From contig CASEEU010000083.1 of assembly GCA_949287075.1 (NCBI GenBank), positions 3,039 through 67,038 of the forward strand: a stretch of DNA of 64,000 bases. The letters are read 5' to 3'. This document shows, in pieces, positions 24,612-29,021 of the stretch (position 1 is its first letter; each line of letters starts with the position of its first letter). The position numbers and the translations under genes were made by a program. The notes below the pieces were generated by a model. The model was given only the letters and a program-made list of their open reading frames with translations. It did no database searches and had not been told where the DNA came from. Source of the stretch: an uncultured Eubacteriales bacterium (GTDB lineage: Bacteria > Bacillota > Clostridia > TANB77 > CAG-508).

Positions 24612-24649
24612 ACCTAGGATACAGATAATCAGATCTGTTCCTAGGTTTT
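24612..24649. terminator. Hairpin shared by convergent genes
   Basis: ACCTAGGATACAGAT-AATC-AGATCTGTTCCTAGGT followed by TTT. It overlaps the stop of the minus-strand radical SAM gene. Confidence 0.6.
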
Positions 24650-25564
24650 ACCATTTTTATAATATATCCCTTGATACAAATTTTCTTCTTTTAATTTTTT
24701 ATCCAAACCATTTAATATCCACTTTTTGTGTAAATCCCATTTAGGAGCAATTAATATATCTTTAGGAGCATCACCAGATACTCTATGAATGACAATATCA
24801 GAAGAAATATGTGAAAGGATATATACCAAACAATCTAAGTAATATTCTAAGGAAATAGGTTCATATTCATTCTTGCTATACATATTAGCTAAAACAGTAT
24901 TTTCTATAATATAAGTATTATGAATTTTTAATCCTTGGATATGATGCTGGTTTATAAAATTTACGGTATTTTGTATATCCTTAAAACTTTCACCAGGTAA
25001 TCCTACCATTATATGAATAATCACATCAATATCATACTTATTAAGCAATTGAACAGCCTTTGTAAATTGCTCATTTGTATATTGCCTATTAATGAATTTT
25101 CCGATTTCTTCATTGGATGTTTGCAAACCTAATTCTACAGAAACATAATATTTCTTTGTATAAGAATGTAACAGTTTTACAATATCTTCATTGATACAAT
25201 CAGGTCTGGTAGCAATTGATAATCCAATAATTTTCGGATTAATTAATGCACTGTCATATTTTTTCTTCAAGTTATCAATAGAATCATATGTATTCGAAAA
25301 ATTTTGAAAATAAACAATAAATTTATTTGCCCTATTAGAACGAGGAGAATTAAAATAATCTTCTACTTGTTCTGAAATATCTTTATATGGATTCAAATGT
25401 TCTCCAGAACCACATTCACTACAAAAGATGCAACCAGAACGACTTAAAGTTCCGTCACGATTAGGGCAAGTAAAATGCCCGTTAATGCAAATTTTTAAAA
25501 CTCTTTCTCCAAATCGTTTTATATAATATTCATTTAATTTCATATATCTATATAAACTTTCCAT
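24641..25564 (-). CDS. TIGR01212-family radical SAM protein
   Basis: 307 aa. CPNRDGTLSRSGCIFC is the characteristic cysteine pattern of this radical SAM subfamily. Confidence 0.8.
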   Translation of the reverse strand: MESLYRYMKLNEYYIKRFGERVLKICINGHFTCPNRDGTLSRSGCIFCSECGSGEHLNPYKDISEQVEDYFNSPRSNRANKFIVYFQNFSNTYDSIDNLKKKYDSALINPKIIGLSIATRPDCINEDIVKLLHSYTKKYYVSVELGLQTSNEEIGKFINRQYTNEQFTKAVQLLNKYDIDVIIHIMVGLPGESFKDIQNTVNFINQHHIQGLKIHNTYIIENTVLANMYSKNEYEPISLEYYLDCLVYILSHISSDIVIHRVSGDAPKDILIAPKWDLHKKWILNGLDKKLKEENLYQGIYYKNGKT

Positions 25565-25934: not shown

Positions 25935-26282
25935 CTAATTTTTTATGAAAATAGCAATATCTTTTATAATATTCATAGCCATTTTAATTTCTTTATCGCT
26001 ATATGAACTTAGTAGTTCTTTCGTTTTATCAATAGTTGTATCATCAAGACCATATAAAATATAATCAGCAGAATGACCACTTAAATCTCTAAGTTTTCGA
26101 ATGCTTCTATACATTAAATTTCCTCTACCTTCTTCAACTAATCCAAGGAATTGACTTGATATACCAATTTCTTTTGCTAACTGTGTTTTATTCATATGTA
26201 ACTCATGTTCTCGAATATATTTAATTCTTTTACCTCTCGAAATTTGTTCTTGTTTTTCTAGTTCTAAATCAGATTTATTCAT
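25935..26282 (-). CDS. XRE-family HTH transcriptional regulator
   Basis: 115 aa. MNKTQLAKEIGISSQFLGLVEEGRGN is a classic HTH_3 motif. It is divergent from the response-regulator gene. Confidence 0.8.
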   Translation of the reverse strand: MNKSDLELEKQEQISRGKRIKYIREHELHMNKTQLAKEIGISSQFLGLVEEGRGNLMYRSIRKLRDLSGHSADYILYGLDDTTIDKTKELLSSYSDKEIKMAMNIIKDIAIFIKN

Positions 26283-26436: not shown

Positions 26437-27225
26437 ATGACAACAAAATCTATGAAAATACTAATAATAGAAGATGATAGAAATGATTGCAACAATTTTA
26501 TTAATAGTGTGAAGAATAGAGATGATGTAGAGATTATTGGAATCACGGATTCAGATGTAGAAGGACTAAAATATGCAAAATTAAAGAAACCAGAAGGTAT
26601 TATATTAGATTTAGAATTAAATAACAGTATGACAGGAAACGCAGATTCTTTGGGATTTTTGTCAGAGCTTAAAAAGTTGAATTTGGGTTATGAACCAATC
26701 ATTGTTGTGACAACACATATTCATTCAAAAAGAATATATGATATCGTTCATAAGAATGGTGCAGATATCATATTATATAAAAATCATCCAAGATATTCAG
26801 CAGACTATGTTTTGAATAAATTAATAAGTTTAAGAGAAGTAACACCAGAAAAAACAATAGAAACTTTAAAAGAAGAATTAGAAGATACTAGGCAAAAGAT
26901 ATCAGATTGCATTGTTAGAGAATTAGACTTAATAGGAATACCTGCTAAAATGGTAGGAAGAAAATATATACATGATGCAATTTTGTATTTGATTGAAAAT
27001 AAAGGAGATAATACAAACGTGATTAGACATTTAACAAATATATACAAAAAATCAGGAAATACAATTACGAATGGTATTCAAAATGCCATTATACATGCAT
27101 GGAATAATACACCAGTAGATGATTTGTTGGAATATTATAGAGCAAGAGTAAGTCTTGAAACTGGTATACCAACACCAATGGAATTTATATATTATTATGT
27201 AGAAAAAGTTGGAAGAGAAGTATAA
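26437..27225 (+). CDS. Response regulator with Spo0A-type C-terminal DNA-binding domain (Spo0A paralogue-like)
   Basis: 262 aa. The receiver domain has IIEDD, the phospho-acceptor ILDLEL, and TTH/K. The C-terminus (IGIPAKMVGRKYIHDAILYL...IQNAIIHAWNN...GIPTPMEFIYY) parallels the Spo0A_C signature (GVPAHIKGY.YLREAI...AIRHAIEVAW...PTNSEFI). Confidence 0.8.
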   Translation: MTTKSMKILIIEDDRNDCNNFINSVKNRDDVEIIGITDSDVEGLKYAKLKKPEGIILDLELNNSMTGNADSLGFLSELKKLNLGYEPIIVVTTHIHSKRIYDIVHKNGADIILYKNHPRYSADYVLNKLISLREVTPEKTIETLKEELEDTRQKISDCIVRELDLIGIPAKMVGRKYIHDAILYLIENKGDNTNVIRHLTNIYKKSGNTITNGIQNAIIHAWNNTPVDDLLEYYRARVSLETGIPTPMEFIYYYVEKVGREV

Positions 27226-27244
27226 GAAATAAAAATCAAAAATG

Positions 27245-27298
27245 AACATATCATAGGTATTAAATTTTTTAGTTGATATTTATGATATGTTTTTTTTT
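27245..27298 (+). terminator. Rho-independent terminator after the response-regulator gene
   Basis: AACATATCATA ... TATGATATGTT stem followed by a run of T. Confidence 0.55.
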
Positions 27299-27375
27299 AT
27301 ATTCGACAAAATTTTACCACTTTTTTTCACTAAAAGCTACCGTCTTTTTTTCGTAAGAAGATGGTAATTTTTTAT

Positions 27376-27404
27376 TTGTAGGAAGTATTACAGCTTTCTA
27401 TAAA
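27376..27404 (+). promoter_or_regulatory. Candidate promoter of the 17-codon peptide gene
   Basis: TTGTAG (27376-27381), 17 nt spacer, TATAAA (27399-27404). Confidence 0.4.
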
Positions 27405-27430
27405 TACGAAAGAAAAAGGTGGTGAGAGGT

Positions 27431-27484
27431 ATGAGAGATTGGTACGATGATTTTTTGGATTGGATATTAGGATGGCTTCCATAG
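27431..27484 (+). CDS. Unannotated 17-aa Trp-rich peptide MRDWYDDFLDWILGWLP (candidate signalling peptide)
   Basis: The ATG is preceded by AAAGGTGGTGAGAGG. A TAG stop is followed 20 nt later by a perfect 12 bp terminator. It has its own candidate promoter and lies between the response regulator and the multi-pass kinase. Confidence 0.5.
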   Translation: MRDWYDDFLDWILGWLP

Positions 27485-27505
27485 TAAATAAATAGTTATA
27501 AGTAA

Positions 27506-27545
27506 AAGGATAATCAATAAAATCTTGATTATCCTTTTATTTTAA
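27506..27545 (+). terminator. Rho-independent terminator after the peptide ORF
   Basis: AAGGATAATCAA-TAAAATC-TTGATTATCCTT (perfect 12 bp stem) followed by TTATTTT. Confidence 0.7.
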
Positions 27546-27557
27546 TATAATATATAA

Positions 27558-29021
27558 ATGGGAGTGATATTTGTGGGAGAAATACAAGCAACAATAGAAT
27601 ATTTTTTTAAAATTAGCTTTATTAGCATATGTACTCTATATTTAAATTATAAGATTTTAAATATCAATGAGAAAAATATAAAAGAAAAAATAAAAATATT
27701 AATACAGGTAGTGATAGTGAATATATTTAGCACAATGTTAAAATATATTTCTAATTCTACAGTAGGTATAATGGTAATAGATGTATTTTTAGCATTAATT
27801 TTCTCGAAAAATATAAATAAGAATATAGGATATTCATTATTAATCACAACAATTTCTTTAAGTATTAATTATATTCTTTATATCCTTTCAGCAGCTATAA
27901 ATTATGTATTGTTTAAAAATTATGCTATTCAAAATAGATACATAGTTTTTATAGTTATTTTATTAGTAGATATTGTTTTATTAAAATTAATATCTGGAAT
28001 AAAAAAGTTTAATAAAGGAATCAGTTTTTTAAAAAAGAATGAAAATAATGAATATTTTGGAATTTTTATATTAAATATAAGTTCAACATTATTTTTTGCT
28101 TTTATAATGATTAATAATCTTGATAGGAGTATAGTAAGACCTTTATTTATATATCTTATCATTTTCTCCATCATCATGTTCATCACCATCCAAAAATCCT
28201 TACAGTTATACTACAAACAAAAACTACAAGAAAGAGAAGTAGAAGAAATCAAAGAAGAACTGAAAAATAAAGATAAAGAAATAAAAGAATTAGAAAAAGA
28301 AAATTTGAAACTTAACAAAAAGAATCATTCAATAGCACATAAACAAAAATCATTGGAATATGAACTAGAACAAATGGTGCTGAATAATCAAGTAGCAGAT
28401 GGAAATCATGTAAAAGATAAAATAGAAAATTTATCAAAAGAAATGCAAAATGAAACTGTCAGTATAGAACTAACGAAAACAAATATTGATGAAATTGATA
28501 GTATGTTAAAATATATGCAATCAGAATGTGTAAAAAATAAAATAGATTTTCAATTACAAGTAAATGGAAATATTCATCATATGGTAAATACATATATTGG
28601 AAAAGAAGATCTAGAAATTCTAATTGCAGACATGATAAAGAATGCCATCATAGCTATTAACCATTCTGAAAATATCAATAAAAGTATTTTAGTAAGATTA
28701 GGATTAATTGATGGTGCATATAGTTTATATGTTTATGATTCTGGTATAGAATTTGAAATAGATACATTAATTAATCTTGGAATAAAACCAAGTACAACAC
28801 ATGCAAATGATGGTGGTACAGGAATGGGATTAATGAATACATTTGATACATTAAAGAAATATAAAGCAAGTTTGGTTATTGATGAATATGGAAAACCAGT
28901 AAAAGACAATTTTACAAAAGTAATAAAAATTCTTTTTGATAATGAAAATACATATAAAATCGAGTCATATCGTAAAAAAGATATACAAGAAAAAGATATA
29001 AATAAAAGGGTTTCTTTTTAA
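27558..29021 (+). CDS. Multi-pass membrane sensor histidine kinase (GHKL ATPase, AgrC/HPK10-like architecture)
   Basis: 487 aa. About 6-7 N-terminal TM helices are followed by a coiled-coil (EVEEIKEELKNKDKEIKELEKENLKLNKK). A candidate phospho-His lies in NHSIAHKQKS, an N-box in ADMIKNAIIAINHS, and a G-box in DGGTGMGL. The GTG at 27573 behind GGGAG is an alternative start. Confidence 0.8.
   Translation: MGVIFVGEIQATIEYFFKISFISICTLYLNYKILNINEKNIKEKIKILIQVVIVNIFSTMLKYISNSTVGIMVIDVFLALIFSKNINKNIGYSLLITTISLSINYILYILSAAINYVLFKNYAIQNRYIVFIVILLVDIVLLKLISGIKKFNKGISFLKKNENNEYFGIFILNISSTLFFAFIMINNLDRSIVRPLFIYLIIFSIIMFITIQKSLQLYYKQKLQEREVEEIKEELKNKDKEIKELEKENLKLNKKNHSIAHKQKSLEYELEQMVLNNQVADGNHVKDKIENLSKEMQNETVSIELTKTNIDEIDSMLKYMQSECVKNKIDFQLQVNGNIHHMVNTYIGKEDLEILIADMIKNAIIAINHSENINKSILVRLGLIDGAYSLYVYDSGIEFEIDTLINLGIKPSTTHANDGGTGMGLMNTFDTLKKYKASLVIDEYGKPVKDNFTKVIKILFDNENTYKIESYRKKDIQEKDINKRVSF

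What the first reader, a model, noticed from the sequence alone, without database searches (positions are those of the whole stretch)
27431..27484. Unannotated 17-codon Trp-rich ORF MRDWYDDFLDWILGWLP with complete expression signals
Seen in sequence:
- A promoter-like element is present: TTGTAG, 17 nt spacer, TATAAA.
- A strong RBS (AAAGGTGGTGAGAGG) precedes the ATG.
- The ORF has 17 sense codons and a TAG stop, followed by a perfect 12 bp stem terminator.
- Four of the 17 residues are Trp, with an acidic N-terminal half and a hydrophobic/aromatic C-terminal half (LDWILGWLP).

Established knowledge:
- Several Gram-positive pheromones are encoded by tiny unannotated ORFs of this size with aromatic C-termini, for example the 17-aa ComS precursors with a double-Trp motif and the SHP peptides.

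Inference:
- This is the best candidate ligand for the adjacent multi-pass kinase.
- Alternatively, it is a small membrane-active regulator of that kinase.
- It has no Cys for a thiolactone and no Gly-Gly leader, so it does not fit the AgrD or ComC classes.
Basis: partly seen in the sequence, partly recalled or inferred. Interest (0 to 1): 0.7.

Follow-up and report, generated by a model that had tools for sequence, protein, structure and literature searches.

The report
Conserved mini-gene paired with sensor kinase
The 17-codon reading frame is a real, conserved gene for a small tryptophan-rich helical peptide that changes in step with the membrane part of the kinase next to it, which suggests an undescribed peptide-signalling system in gut Clostridia.

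Summary
The ORF at 27431-27484 (MRDWYDDFLDWILGWLP) is real, but it has three Trp, not four. Its strong ribosome-binding site and downstream terminator hairpin are confirmed. The proposed promoter is weak.

It is not a chance ORF. About 150 related loci from gut metagenome-assembled genomes were examined. Nearly every kinase homologue (35-90% identical) has a 13-20 codon gene of the same pattern, M-x-D-W-[YF]-[DE]-x-[FL]-x-x-W-[LIV]-x-x-W-[LIM]. The SD AAAGGTGGTGA is invariant in the genome-set loci.

The conserved module is XRE regulator, Spo0A_C-type response regulator, peptide and 7-TM histidine kinase.

Among close relatives the regulator (82-98%, mean 90%) and the kinase's cytoplasmic half (72-98%, mean 83%) are conserved. 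The kinase's membrane domain is only 28-63% identical (mean 39%). Peptide divergence tracks that domain (partial Mantel r 0.39-0.77, p<=5e-4) and not the regulator, the catalytic domain or XRE. Loci with two kinases carry two peptide genes.

Best reading: the peptide is the kinase's cognate partner, most likely a leaderless, unmodified autoinducing signal with specificity alleles. This is analogous to Agr, Com and ComQXP but not homologous to them. Secretion is untested, and no exporter is linked. No Pfam or NCBIfam family matches, and no paper describing it was found.

The parts
25935..26282 (-). XRE-family HTH regulator, 115 aa, transcribed divergently. It is the fourth conserved member of the module.
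   Evidence: Pfam HTH_3. Present next to the response regulator in 63 of 77 genome loci and in distant metagenome loci. It does not co-vary with the peptide once the sensor domain is controlled.
26437..27225 (+). Response regulator with a receiver domain and a Spo0A_C DNA-binding domain. It is a Spo0A paralogue, not Spo0A itself.
   Evidence: Pfam Spo0A_C 2.9e-12 and Response_reg. TIGR02875 scores 74 bits against a cutoff of 200. E12, D13, D14, D58, T92/T93 and K115 are conserved in 62 sequences. It is 94-97% identical to the window in the nine relatives whose sensor domains are 30-46% identical.
27296..27331 (+). Repeated TTCGNCA-like boxes: an exact TTCGACA at 27302-27308, then TTTACCA and TTTTCAC about 10 nt apart. 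TTCGNCA is the reverse complement of the 0A box TGNCGAA. Candidate binding sites for the response regulator.
   Evidence: Exact boxes are about 57-fold enriched at -170 to -70 from the peptide ATG (36 in 7.2 kb against 52 in 596 kb), but an exact box occurs in only 28 of 71 loci. Degenerate direct repeats occupy the same place in the other subgroups. Binding is inferred.
27338..27373 (+). Conserved, co-varying hairpin (TACCGTCTTTTT / AAGAAGATGGTA) followed by a T-run, between the boxes and the SD. It could be an insulating terminator or a leader element.
   Evidence: Terminator scan. 87% of cells are paired against at most 51% when the pairing is slid, and 24 double-change cells against 11.5 in shuffles, 0 of 500. 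In distant loci the regulator gene has its own terminator further upstream.
27376..27404 (+).
   Evidence: Present but below the scan threshold. Conserved only in the window's subgroup. Function is uncertain.
27415..27425 (+). Shine-Dalgarno sequence AAAGGTGGTGA.
   Evidence: (A)GGTGGTG is present 5-10 nt upstream of the ATG in all 71 genome loci, with one GGGTGGTG variant (L052). A related SD is present in distant loci.
27431..27484 (+). Mini-gene for the 17-aa peptide MRDWYDDFLDWILGWLP: an amphipathic, Trp-rich helix with an acidic N-terminal half.
   Evidence: Conserved in 71 of 75 genome loci at this position and elsewhere in the locus in 3 more. Codon-position entropy is pos2 < pos1 < pos3. 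The amphipathic periodicity peaks at 100 degrees, mean z 2.5. PSSM score 29.6 bits. Closest alleles are MRDWYDDFLDWILQWLP and MEEWYEDFLEWILQWLP.
27503..27543 (+). Intrinsic terminator-like hairpin and T-run between the peptide gene and the kinase gene.
   Evidence: Fold. A hairpin of about -13 to -28 kcal/mol lies within 75 nt downstream of the peptide stop in most of the 71 loci; about eight are weaker than -13, down to -3.9.
27558..28196 (+). Hypervariable sensor domain of the kinase: seven predicted TM helices, inferred N-terminus outside, very short outside loops. The true start is probably GTG 27573.
   Evidence: AF2 helices. K-rich loops at residues 35-40, 86-90 and 147-164 (sequence). 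Segment identities of 23-55% within close relatives, correlating with the peptide at r up to 0.74. Only G154 is at least 97% conserved.
28197..29021 (+). Cytoplasmic DHp and catalytic (GHKL) domains of the histidine kinase.
   Evidence: Weak Pfam HATPase_c. Foldseek matches to HK853, DesK, BceS and ZraS. H257, H261, the N box, and the G1 and G2 boxes are conserved. 83-85% identical in close relatives, with no correlation to the peptide.

Best explanation
The ORF is a genuine, translated mini-gene. Its 17-residue product is an amphipathic, Trp-rich alpha-helical peptide. It is the cognate partner of the seven-helix membrane domain of the adjacent histidine kinase.

The most likely mechanism has five steps:
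1. The unprocessed or minimally processed peptide is released from the cell.
2. It partitions into the membrane interface.
3. It binds the kinase's helix bundle and switches the kinase.
4. The kinase controls phosphorylation of the Spo0A_C-type response regulator.
5. That regulator binds the repeated TTCGNCA-like boxes upstream of the peptide gene. The terminator after the peptide gene keeps the peptide far more abundant than the kinase.

The peptide and the sensor domain form a hypervariable, recombining cassette of specificity alleles on a conserved regulator and catalytic background.

Shown:
- The gene is real and under protein-level constraint.
- The module is conserved.
- Hypervariability is confined to the peptide and the membrane domain, and the two co-vary.
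- Two peptide genes occur with two kinases.
- The kinase has a histidine-kinase fold with its catalytic motifs.
- The regulator has intact receiver residues.

Inferred:
- Secretion of the peptide.
- Direct binding to the kinase.
- The sign of the effect.
- Binding of the regulator to the boxes, and autoinduction.
For: Gene reality:
- 71 of 75 genome loci carry the ORF at this position, giving 69 distinct peptides. All start with ATG, all have the SD (A)GGTGGTG, and most have a downstream hairpin.
- Three further loci carry the gene elsewhere in the locus.
- Metagenome loci with kinases only 35-47% identical still have it.
- An independent-set PSSM test found 52 of 61 loci and no false hits.
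- Codon-position entropy is 9.8 (pos2) < 12.6 (pos1) < 16.7 (pos3).

Peptide properties:
- Helical amphipathicity peaks at 100 degrees, and 91% of peptides exceed their own shuffles.

Partnership with the kinase:
- In the window's nine nearest relatives by regulator identity, the regulator is 94-97% and the catalytic half 87-92% identical to the window, while the sensor is 30-46%. Across all pairs of the 16 close loci the means are 90%, 83% and 39%.
- The boundary is sharp at about residue 213.
- Peptide divergence against sensor divergence gives Mantel r = 0.48 (n=62), 0.77 (16 close relatives) and 0.55 (n=96). The partial correlations given the catalytic domain or the regulator are 0.39-0.77, p<=5e-4.
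- Peptide divergence against the regulator, catalytic domain or XRE, given the sensor, is about 0-0.17.
- The correlation is graded: 90% sensor identity goes with one peptide change, 79% with five changes (four Asp/Glu swaps, R2E and G14Q), and 63% with more.
- L051 and L067 each have two peptide genes, two kinases and one regulator.

Signalling components:
- The kinase has a histidine-kinase fold and conserved His, N, G1 and G2 motifs.
- The regulator's phospho-acceptor pocket is intact.
- 0A-type boxes are about 57-fold enriched upstream of the peptide gene.

Allele dynamics:
- Mosaic alleles show that the cassette moves as a unit. L078 and L081 have sensor dS 0.07 but cytoplasmic dS 0.60, with identical peptides.
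- One 90%-identity cluster of the regulator holds 172 member sequences. The four kinase clusters examined, all from relatives of the window's kinase, hold 3-4 each.
Against: - There is no signal peptide, leader, exporter, peptidase or modification enzyme in the conserved module.
- No ABC ATPase signature occurs anywhere in the 64-kb window, so release from the cell has no identified route.
- The peptide gene adjoins the 5' (sensor-coding) end of the kinase gene. Co-inheritance of one recombination block could therefore produce part of the correlation without physical interaction.
- dN/dS between near alleles is below 1 in the sensor (0.18-0.31), so there is no direct signature of positive selection.
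- The sidedness test was inconclusive.
- The boxes match the exact 0A consensus in only 28 of 71 loci.
- All organisms are uncultured, and no expression or peptide data were available.
Confidence: 0.55

Rival explanations
1. The peptide never leaves the producing cell. It partitions into the inner membrane leaflet, or stays cytoplasmic, and binds the membrane domain of its own kinase as a feedback modulator. It would work like MgrB on PhoQ or SafA on PhoQ, but as a surface-lying amphipathic helix rather than a transmembrane one.
For: - No export, processing or modification genes are in the conserved module, and there is no ABC signature in the window.
- The peptide is leaderless and amphipathic.
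- Co-variation with the membrane domain is equally expected under this model.
- A need for insulation between paralogous systems in one genome could drive diversification. Examples are L002 and L024 in one MAG, L051 and L067 with two kinases, and L164 with two modules.
Against: - Extreme allele diversity exists among near-identical genomic backgrounds: sensor 30-46% identical where flanking proteins are 90-97%. Known polymorphic signal-receptor systems (agr, comQXP; established knowledge) show such diversity; MgrB, to my knowledge, is well conserved (memory, not checked here).
- Predicted outward-facing halves of the helices are the more variable ones (0.74 against 0.61 mismatch, p=4e-5). This is a weak hint that depends on the inferred topology.
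- At 13-17 residues the peptide is too short to span the membrane, unlike known small membrane regulators.
Confidence: 0.25
2. The peptide is an effector rather than a signal, or both at once. It would be a leaderless membrane-active peptide of the phenol-soluble-modulin or leaderless-bacteriocin type, whose production the two-component system controls.
For: - It is leaderless, Trp-rich and amphipathic, with a very strong SD suggesting high output.
- Tandem multi-copy arrangements exist: three genes in L040 and two in L051 and L067.
- Candidate regulator boxes lie upstream, as AgrA directly controls the psm genes (established knowledge).
Against: - Net charge is mostly -1 to -3, unlike cationic leaderless bacteriocins.
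- The length of 13-17 aa is shorter than PSMs (20-26 aa) or leaderless bacteriocins (over 30 aa).
- No immunity or transporter genes are linked.
- Peptide copy number matches kinase number in L051 and L067.
- Allele-specific co-variation with the sensor is not needed for a pure effector.
Confidence: 0.1
3. The peptide is a SinI-like antagonist of the divergently encoded 115-aa XRE repressor. Its expression would depend on the Spo0A-type regulator, as sinI depends on Spo0A in B. subtilis.
For: - The XRE gene is a conserved module member of SinR-like size.
- 0A-like boxes lie upstream of a tiny helical peptide gene.
Against: - Peptide divergence does not follow XRE once the sensor is controlled (partial r 0.08, p=0.06), whereas peptide against sensor given XRE is 0.49.
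- XRE is 88-94% identical to the window in eight of the nine nearest relatives (L070 gave no XRE match), although their peptides differ widely.
- There is no SinI-domain match in XRE.
Confidence: 0.05
4. The ORF is only a regulatory leader peptide. Ribosome stalling at Trp codons would control read-through of the downstream terminator into the kinase gene, and the peptide itself would have no function.
For: - The ORF is short, Trp-rich and strongly translated, and it lies directly upstream of a terminator and the kinase gene.
Against: - The Trp codons are spaced (W-x6-W-x3-W), not adjacent.
- Non-Trp positions are conserved by physico-chemical class and helical periodicity.
- The distance from the stop codon to the hairpin varies.
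- Peptide genes occur in tandem and away from a kinase: L051, L067 and L040. The second kinase in L051 and L067 has none.
- Co-variation with the sensor protein sequence is unexplained by this model.
Confidence: 0.03

Closest known systems
Staphylococcal agr (AgrD/AgrB/AgrC/AgrA)
   Same: - A small peptide gene lies next to a polytopic histidine kinase that has almost no extracellular loops.
- Hypervariability is confined to the peptide and the kinase's membrane domain, on a conserved catalytic domain and regulator, with recombining specificity alleles.
- Autoregulation by the regulator is likely (inferred).
   Different: - There is no AgrB.
- There is no conserved Cys or Ser, so no thiolactone or lactone ring, and no N- or C-terminal propeptide.
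- The kinase does not match HATPase_c_5.
- The regulator has a Spo0A_C domain, not LytTR.
- The gene order is regulator, peptide, kinase.
ComC/ComD/ComE and the inducer peptides of class II bacteriocin loci (three-component systems)
   Same: - The signal is a linear, unmodified peptide of about 17 residues that acts as an amphipathic helix on a polytopic kinase (established knowledge for CSP and ComD). The size and the amphipathic pattern match.
- Allelic pherotypes exist.
   Different: - There is no Gly-Gly leader and no ComAB-type ABC/C39 exporter.
- The peptide is encoded at its final size.
- It is mostly anionic, whereas CSP is cationic.
- The regulator is not LytTR.
SHP/Rgg and ComS(XIP)/ComR short hydrophobic peptides of streptococci
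   Same: - They are unannotated ORFs of 17-23 codons with no dedicated processing genes next to them and an aromatic, Trp-containing C-terminal half.
   Different: - Those peptides are re-imported and bind cytoplasmic TPR (RRNPP) regulators.
- Here the adjacent HTH protein has 115 aa and no TPR part, and the co-varying partner is a membrane kinase.
ComQXPA of Bacillus
   Same: - It has a Trp-containing pheromone, a multi-pass kinase (ComP) and a conserved regulator.
- Polymorphism covers the pheromone gene and the N-terminal part of the kinase (established knowledge; census in PMC4008528).
   Different: - No ComQ isoprenyl transferase is linked.
- The peptide is not cut from a roughly 55-aa precursor.
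- The regulator is Spo0A_C-type, not NarL-type.
MgrB, SafA and other small membrane proteins that modulate histidine kinases
   Same: - A tiny protein is encoded with, or controlled by, a two-component system and acts on the kinase's membrane part.
   Different: - Those proteins have a transmembrane segment, and MgrB, to my knowledge, is well conserved (memory, not checked).
- This peptide is 13-20 aa, amphipathic, and hypervariable together with its kinase.
Spo0A and its paralogues in Clostridia
   Same: - The regulator has a receiver domain plus Spo0A_C, and 0A-type boxes lie upstream of a target gene.
- Paralogous spo0A genes are recorded in some Clostridiales (bioRxiv 10.1101/2022.02.25.481979).
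   Different: - It scores far below the Spo0A equivalog cutoff (74 against 200 bits).
- It is paired with its own kinase and a peptide gene. The one source consulted records such paralogues without assigning them a function.

Membership tests
Agr-type cyclic autoinducing peptide system | Precursor peptide with a conserved Cys or Ser that forms a thiolactone or lactone ring | tested here: not met
   The window peptide has no Cys or Ser. Only 9 of 78 family peptides contain Cys, and at a variable position.
Agr-type cyclic autoinducing peptide system | AgrB-type membrane peptidase encoded with the peptide | tested here: not met
   The conserved module is XRE, regulator, peptide and kinase only. 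The neighbouring genes vary and are unrelated.
Agr-type cyclic autoinducing peptide system | HPK10 kinase (GHKL HATPase_c_5) with a LytTR response regulator | tested here: not met
   Pfam gives only a weak HATPase_c match for the kinase and Spo0A_C for the regulator. NCBIfam finds no family for the kinase.
Agr-type cyclic autoinducing peptide system | Hypervariable peptide and sensor domain on a conserved catalytic domain and regulator. This is a functional hallmark, not a test of homology. | tested here: met
Double-glycine-leader pheromones (ComC, BlpC, PlnA) | N-terminal leader ending in Gly-Gly, and an ABC exporter with a C39 peptidase domain | tested here: not met
   The peptides are 13-20 aa in total with no leader. 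There is no ABC signature in the window and none in the module.
RRNPP / Rgg-SHP / ComRS | Adjacent cytoplasmic receptor with HTH and TPR domains (about 280-300 aa) | tested here: not met
   The adjacent HTH protein is 115 aa and matches HTH_3 only. The peptide does not co-vary with it.
RRNPP / Rgg-SHP / ComRS | Very short leaderless ORF with a hydrophobic, aromatic C-terminal part | tested here: met
ComQXPA | ComQ isoprenyl transferase gene upstream of the pheromone gene, and a prenylated Trp | tested here: not met
   No such gene is in the module. Modification of the Trp residues cannot be tested from sequence.
Two-component system (histidine kinase plus response regulator) | DHp helix with a conserved His and a GHKL ATP-binding domain | tested here: met
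   Foldseek matches to HK853, DesK, BceS and ZraS. H257, H261, and the N, G1 and G2 motifs are conserved. The sequence around the His (NHSIAHKQK) is non-canonical.
Two-component system (histidine kinase plus response regulator) | Receiver domain with an acidic pocket, phospho-acceptor Asp, Thr and Lys | tested here: met
   E12, D13, D14, D58, T92/T93 and K115 are at least 97% conserved. Phosphotransfer itself cannot be tested here.
Spo0A (sporulation master regulator) | Score at or above the TIGR02875 equivalog cutoff | tested here: not met
   74.2 bits against a cutoff of 200.
Small transmembrane kinase modulators (MgrB/SafA type) | A hydrophobic segment long enough to span the membrane | tested here: not met
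   16-17 residues with an amphipathic, not uniformly hydrophobic, pattern.
trp-type leader peptide attenuator | Adjacent regulatory codons, an alternative antiterminator overlapping the ORF, and a downstream operon for that amino acid | tested here: not met
   The Trp codons are spaced, no strong alternative pairing appears in the fold, the downstream gene is a kinase, and tandem or detached copies exist.
Secreted quorum-sensing pheromone (functional class) | The peptide is found outside the cell and acts from outside in a concentration-dependent way | not testable with these tools
   This needs peptidomics or synthetic-peptide assays. No exporter was identified.

The most novel reading that the evidence does not exclude
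This is a previously undescribed class of Gram-positive cell-cell signalling. Its pheromones are leaderless, unmodified, Trp-rich amphipathic peptides of 13-20 residues, encoded at their final size. Each is sensed by a seven-helix histidine kinase that feeds a Spo0A-paralogue regulator. Many specificity alleles (pherotypes) are shuffled by recombination among gut Clostridia of humans and animals.
Probability: 0.5. Interest if true: 0.85.

Novelty: new variant of a known kind. Interest (0 to 1): 0.78.

Why it matters
If the peptide is a signal, gut Clostridia known only from metagenomes would have a private, allele-specific communication channel. Annotation pipelines cannot see it, because the gene is 13-20 codons long.

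The system would need no processing or export genes, which makes it the simplest peptide-kinase signalling unit so far. Its output is a paralogue of the sporulation master regulator, which hints at control of a developmental or colonisation programme.

It is also directly testable. The peptides are short enough to synthesise, and natural allele series give ready-made specificity controls. The module has only three or four genes, so it can be rebuilt in a model host.

The case also shows that co-variation with a neighbouring receptor can validate unannotated mini-genes.

Tried and rejected
- **Chance ORF.** Rejected by conservation, the PSSM test and codon-position statistics.
- **Known RNA element.** Rfam found nothing in 27100-27700.
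- **Known protein family for the peptide.** The 20-23 aa family members gave no Pfam or NCBIfam match. Peptides under 20 aa cannot be searched.
- **Named kinase family.** NCBIfam found none. Against PDB sequences only RsbW matched, at 1.7e-4. No source gives these proteins a name.
- **Phage origin.** No relatives were found in viral contigs.
- **The 26-codon ORF MFFSIFDKFLPFFFT... upstream (27288-27368).** It is conserved in the window's subgroup but has no SD, and its frame is not kept in other subgroups. Its conservation is explained by the boxes and the hairpin it overlaps.
- **Radical SAM gene as a peptide maturase.** It is a TIGR01212-like, ELP3-type enzyme without SPASM or RRE domains. 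Its position relative to the module is inconsistent, so it was left as an unexplained linkage.
- **Genes inserted between the regulator and the peptide gene in relatives.** These are PDDEXK_2/Rpn transposase-like fragments, not export or processing genes.
- **Positive selection.** dN/dS is below 1.
- **Sidedness of co-varying positions.** Inconclusive.
- **Literature.** Five full-text searches found no description of this system.
- **RNAalifold on the leader.** It preferred an alternative pairing of an upstream repeat (ACCATTT) with the right arm. The local hairpin is better supported.
Full report
**1. What is in the window**

The sequence at 27431-27484 reads ATG AGA GAT TGG TAC GAT GAT TTT TTG GAT TGG ATA TTA GGA TGG CTT CCA TAG. 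This gives MRDWYDDFLDWILGWLP, 17 sense codons and a TAG stop.

- It contains three Trp (W4, W11, W15).
- The SD AAAGGTGGTGA lies at 27415-27425, 5 nt before the ATG.
- A perfect hairpin lies downstream at 27503-27539 (15-bp stem, 7-nt loop), followed by TTTT.
- The kinase ORF follows at 27558. It more probably starts at the in-frame GTG 27573, which has its own SD, GGGAGTGA.
It did not pass the consensus scan, and promoter-like hits in this 27% GC DNA are at chance level (38 found, 39.7 expected).
- A second terminator-like hairpin lies upstream at 27338-27366.

**2. The neighbours**

- 26437-27225 encodes a response regulator with a receiver domain and a Spo0A_C DNA-binding domain. It scores 74 bits against the Spo0A equivalog model, whose cutoff is 200, so it is a paralogue and not Spo0A.
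- 27558-29021 encodes a 487-aa protein with seven predicted membrane helices in residues 1-213. A long coiled helix and a GHKL ATPase domain follow.
- By sequence this protein is barely recognisable: a weak HATPase_c match, no NCBIfam family, and only RsbW among PDB sequences.
- By fold, the AlphaFold model (pLDDT 71) matches the DHp-plus-catalytic cores of HK853, DesK, BceS and ZraS.
- H257, H261 and the N, G1 and G2 motifs are conserved. So are the regulator's E12, D13, D14, D58, T92/T93 and K115.
- A 115-aa XRE-type HTH protein is encoded divergently at 25935-26282.

**3. The mini-gene is conserved, far beyond chance**

A scan of one genome per species returned 77 loci. All came from uncultured gut Clostridia and Bacillota MAGs from human, chicken, rabbit and goat.

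- In 71 of the 75 sequences where the region could be read (74 loci and the window), a 13-20 codon ORF lies 55-312 nt upstream of the kinase. These give 69 distinct peptides.
- All 71 start with ATG, all have (A)GGTGGTG 5-10 nt upstream, nearly all end in TAA, and most have a hairpin downstream.
- The consensus is M-x-D-W-[YF]-[DE]-[AED]-[FL]-x-x-W-[LIV]-[SRK]-x-W-[LIM]-(G).
- Three of the four exceptions carry the gene elsewhere. L040 has three in tandem. L051 and L067 each have two in tandem ahead of a second kinase.
- A metagenome scan added 80 loci with kinases down to 35% identity. These still carry the gene, in shorter forms such as MDFWEWLRYWLGL, MSWEEIWKLIERILGA and MSWEDFWETVRRLVGLG.
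- A position matrix trained on the genome set without the window scores the window ORF 29.6 bits. The next best of 702 small ORFs in the window scores -0.8.
- In the independent metagenome set the matrix finds a hit upstream of the kinase in 52 of 61 eligible loci. It finds none among about 7,300 other small ORFs.
- Codon-position entropy is lowest at position 2 and highest at position 3 (9.8, 12.6 and 16.7), the signature of selection on the protein.
- No Pfam or NCBIfam family matches the longest members. Rfam finds nothing.

**4. What the peptide looks like**

- The hydrophobic moment peaks at 100 degrees per residue. It exceeds that of the peptide's own shuffles in 91% of 78 peptides (mean z 2.5).
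- The N-terminal half is acidic and the C-terminal half tends to be basic, which favours a free-standing helix.
- Net charge is mostly -1 to -3. Length is mostly 16. Trp count is mostly 3-4.
- There is no conserved Cys, no Gly-Gly leader and no signal peptide.

**5. The peptide goes with the kinase's membrane domain**

Nine loci are syntenic close relatives of the window. Their flanking proteins are 88-97% identical to the window's, their regulators 94-97%, and the cytoplasmic half of their kinases 87-92%. Residues 1-210 of their kinases are only 30-46% identical. Across all pairs of the 16 close loci the means are 90% for the regulator, 83% for the cytoplasmic half and 39% for the sensor.

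- The change is abrupt at about residue 213. Membrane segments are 23-55% identical within the close group, against 83-85% for the DHp and catalytic parts.
- Only G154 is at least 97% conserved in the whole membrane domain.
- Peptide divergence follows sensor divergence. Mantel r is 0.48 for 62 loci, 0.77 for the 16 closest and 0.55 for 96 non-redundant loci.
- The partial correlations, controlling for the catalytic domain or the regulator, are 0.39-0.77, p<=5e-4.
- Once the sensor is controlled, the peptide no longer follows the regulator (0.04), the catalytic domain (0.03-0.17) or XRE (0.08).
- The relation is graded:

| Sensor identity to the window | Peptide |
|---|---|
| 90% | MRDWYDDFLDWILQWLP |
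| 79% | MEEWYEDFLEWILQWLP |
| 63% | MQEWYEDFLEWLIKWLP |

- Copy numbers agree. L051 and L067 each have two peptide genes, two kinases and one regulator.
- The cassette recombines as a unit. L078 and L081 share the peptide and a nearly identical sensor (dS 0.07), but their cytoplasmic halves differ at dS 0.60.
- One 90%-identity cluster of the regulator holds 172 sequences. The four kinase clusters examined, from relatives of the window's kinase, hold 3-4 each.
- Caveat: the peptide gene adjoins the sensor-coding end of the kinase gene, so linkage alone contributes to the correlation.

**6. Regulatory anatomy**

- Direct repeats resembling TTCGNCA lie upstream of the peptide gene, spaced about 10 nt apart. 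TTCGNCA is the reverse complement of the Spo0A box TGNCGAA. The window has an exact TTCGACA at 27302-27308.
- Exact boxes are about 57-fold enriched at -170 to -70, but are present in only 28 of 71 loci. Other subgroups have TTTTCACCA or TTTTGTCAT repeats at the same place.
- The hairpin-plus-T-run comes next (27338-27373). Its stem co-varies: 87% of cells are paired against at most 51% when slid, with 24 double changes against 11.5 in shuffles.
- In distant loci the regulator gene has its own terminator upstream of the boxes. The hairpin therefore belongs to the peptide unit.
- Where transcription starts is unknown.
- The terminator after the peptide gene leaves only about 17 nt before the kinase's SD. 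The kinase is therefore probably made by read-through, which gives much peptide and little receptor (inference).

**7. Mechanism and rivals**

The best-supported mechanism is a peptide-receptor pair with specificity alleles.

I rate a secreted autoinducer as most likely (0.55). The diversity is extreme and recombining on near-identical backgrounds. This pattern is known from agr and comQXP, where signals pass between cells. The size and helical pattern of the peptide match mature CSP-type pheromones.

The main weakness is that no exporter, peptidase or modifying enzyme is linked, and no ABC signature occurs in the window.

| Rival | Rating | Main evidence against |
|---|---|---|
| Cell-internal modulator of the kinase | 0.25 | Explains co-variation equally well; fits the allele diversity less well |
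| PSM or leaderless-bacteriocin-like effector | 0.10 | Anionic charge, short length, no immunity genes |
| SinI-like antagonist of XRE | 0.05 | No co-variation with XRE |
| Pure leader peptide | 0.03 | Tandem and detached copies; protein-level constraint |

A test of whether the outward-facing halves of the helices carry the coupling was inconclusive. They are more variable (p=4e-5), but the coupling difference was not significant (p=0.08). dN/dS between near alleles is below 1. This points to old alleles that are maintained and shuffled, not to recent positive selection.

**8. Comparison with known systems and novelty**

Functionally the system resembles agr, ComCDE and ComQXPA. In the form of its gene it resembles SHP and ComS. 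It fails the defining homology features of each:

- no AgrB and no ring-forming residue
- no Gly-Gly leader and no ABC/C39 exporter
- no ComQ
- no TPR receptor
- no LytTR regulator
- no HATPase_c_5 match

Five full-text literature searches found no description of it. The only related note is that some Clostridiales carry paralogous spo0A genes. No source names the proteins.

I class it as a new variant of a known kind, peptide-controlled two-component signalling, built from non-homologous parts. It is widespread in gut MAGs. I found no relatives in phage contigs.

Noticed in passing
window 15466-15503 (upstream of ORF 15539-16360): A near-perfect palindrome, TTTGTCGAAATTTGTATAATTTTACAAAATTCGACAAA, carries two inverted 0A-type boxes. 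It lies just upstream of a TATAAT and of a gene for a probable secreted protein with a YHYHCGGNPAHLH motif. It may be a target of a Spo0A-type regulator, either the true Spo0A or this paralogue.
   Followed up: partly
window 24641-25564 (-), and L022, L044, L058, L059, L071 and others: A TIGR01212-like radical SAM gene (Radical_SAM plus Radical_SAM_C) lies beside the module in 29 of 77 genome loci. It is left of XRE in the window's group and convergent with the kinase in distant groups. This may be functional linkage or only old synteny. It has no SPASM or RRE domain of the kind RiPP maturases have.
   Followed up: partly
L001, L003, L005, L010, L014, L026, L070, L078-L087 (between the regulator and the peptide gene): Many close relatives have a 0.9-1.5 kb insertion of PDDEXK_2/Rpn transposase-like genes or fragments between the regulator gene and the peptide gene. 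The window has none. The insertions might promote exchange of the peptide-sensor cassette.
   Followed up: partly
L078 vs L081; L051, L067, L040, L164: Alleles are mosaic: the same peptide and sensor (dS 0.07) sit on divergent catalytic halves (dS 0.60). The module has also expanded in places: two peptides with two kinases and one regulator (L051, L067), three tandem peptide genes (L040), and two whole modules in tandem (L164).
   Followed up: yes
window 27338-27373: A hairpin with compensatory changes, followed by a T-run, lies between the candidate regulator boxes and the peptide gene's SD in almost all loci. Its role is open: insulator terminator, leader attenuator or 5' stabiliser. RNAalifold also finds an alternative pairing of an upstream repeat (ACCATTT, 27316-27322) with the right arm.
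   Followed up: partly
window 27558-27575: The kinase ORF as listed starts at ATG 27558, which has no SD. The in-frame GTG at 27573 is preceded by GGGAGTGA (27560-27567) and is the more likely start.
   Followed up: no
window 27288-27368: A 26-codon ORF (MFFSIFDKFLPFFFTKSYRLFFVRRW-like) recurs in the window's subgroup of loci. It has no SD, its frame is not kept in other subgroups, and it overlaps the conserved boxes and hairpin. It is judged to be a by-product of DNA and RNA conservation.
   Followed up: yes
whole window: GC content is 26.9%. No ABC-transporter ATPase signature (LSGGQ) occurs in any frame of the 64 kb.
   Followed up: yes
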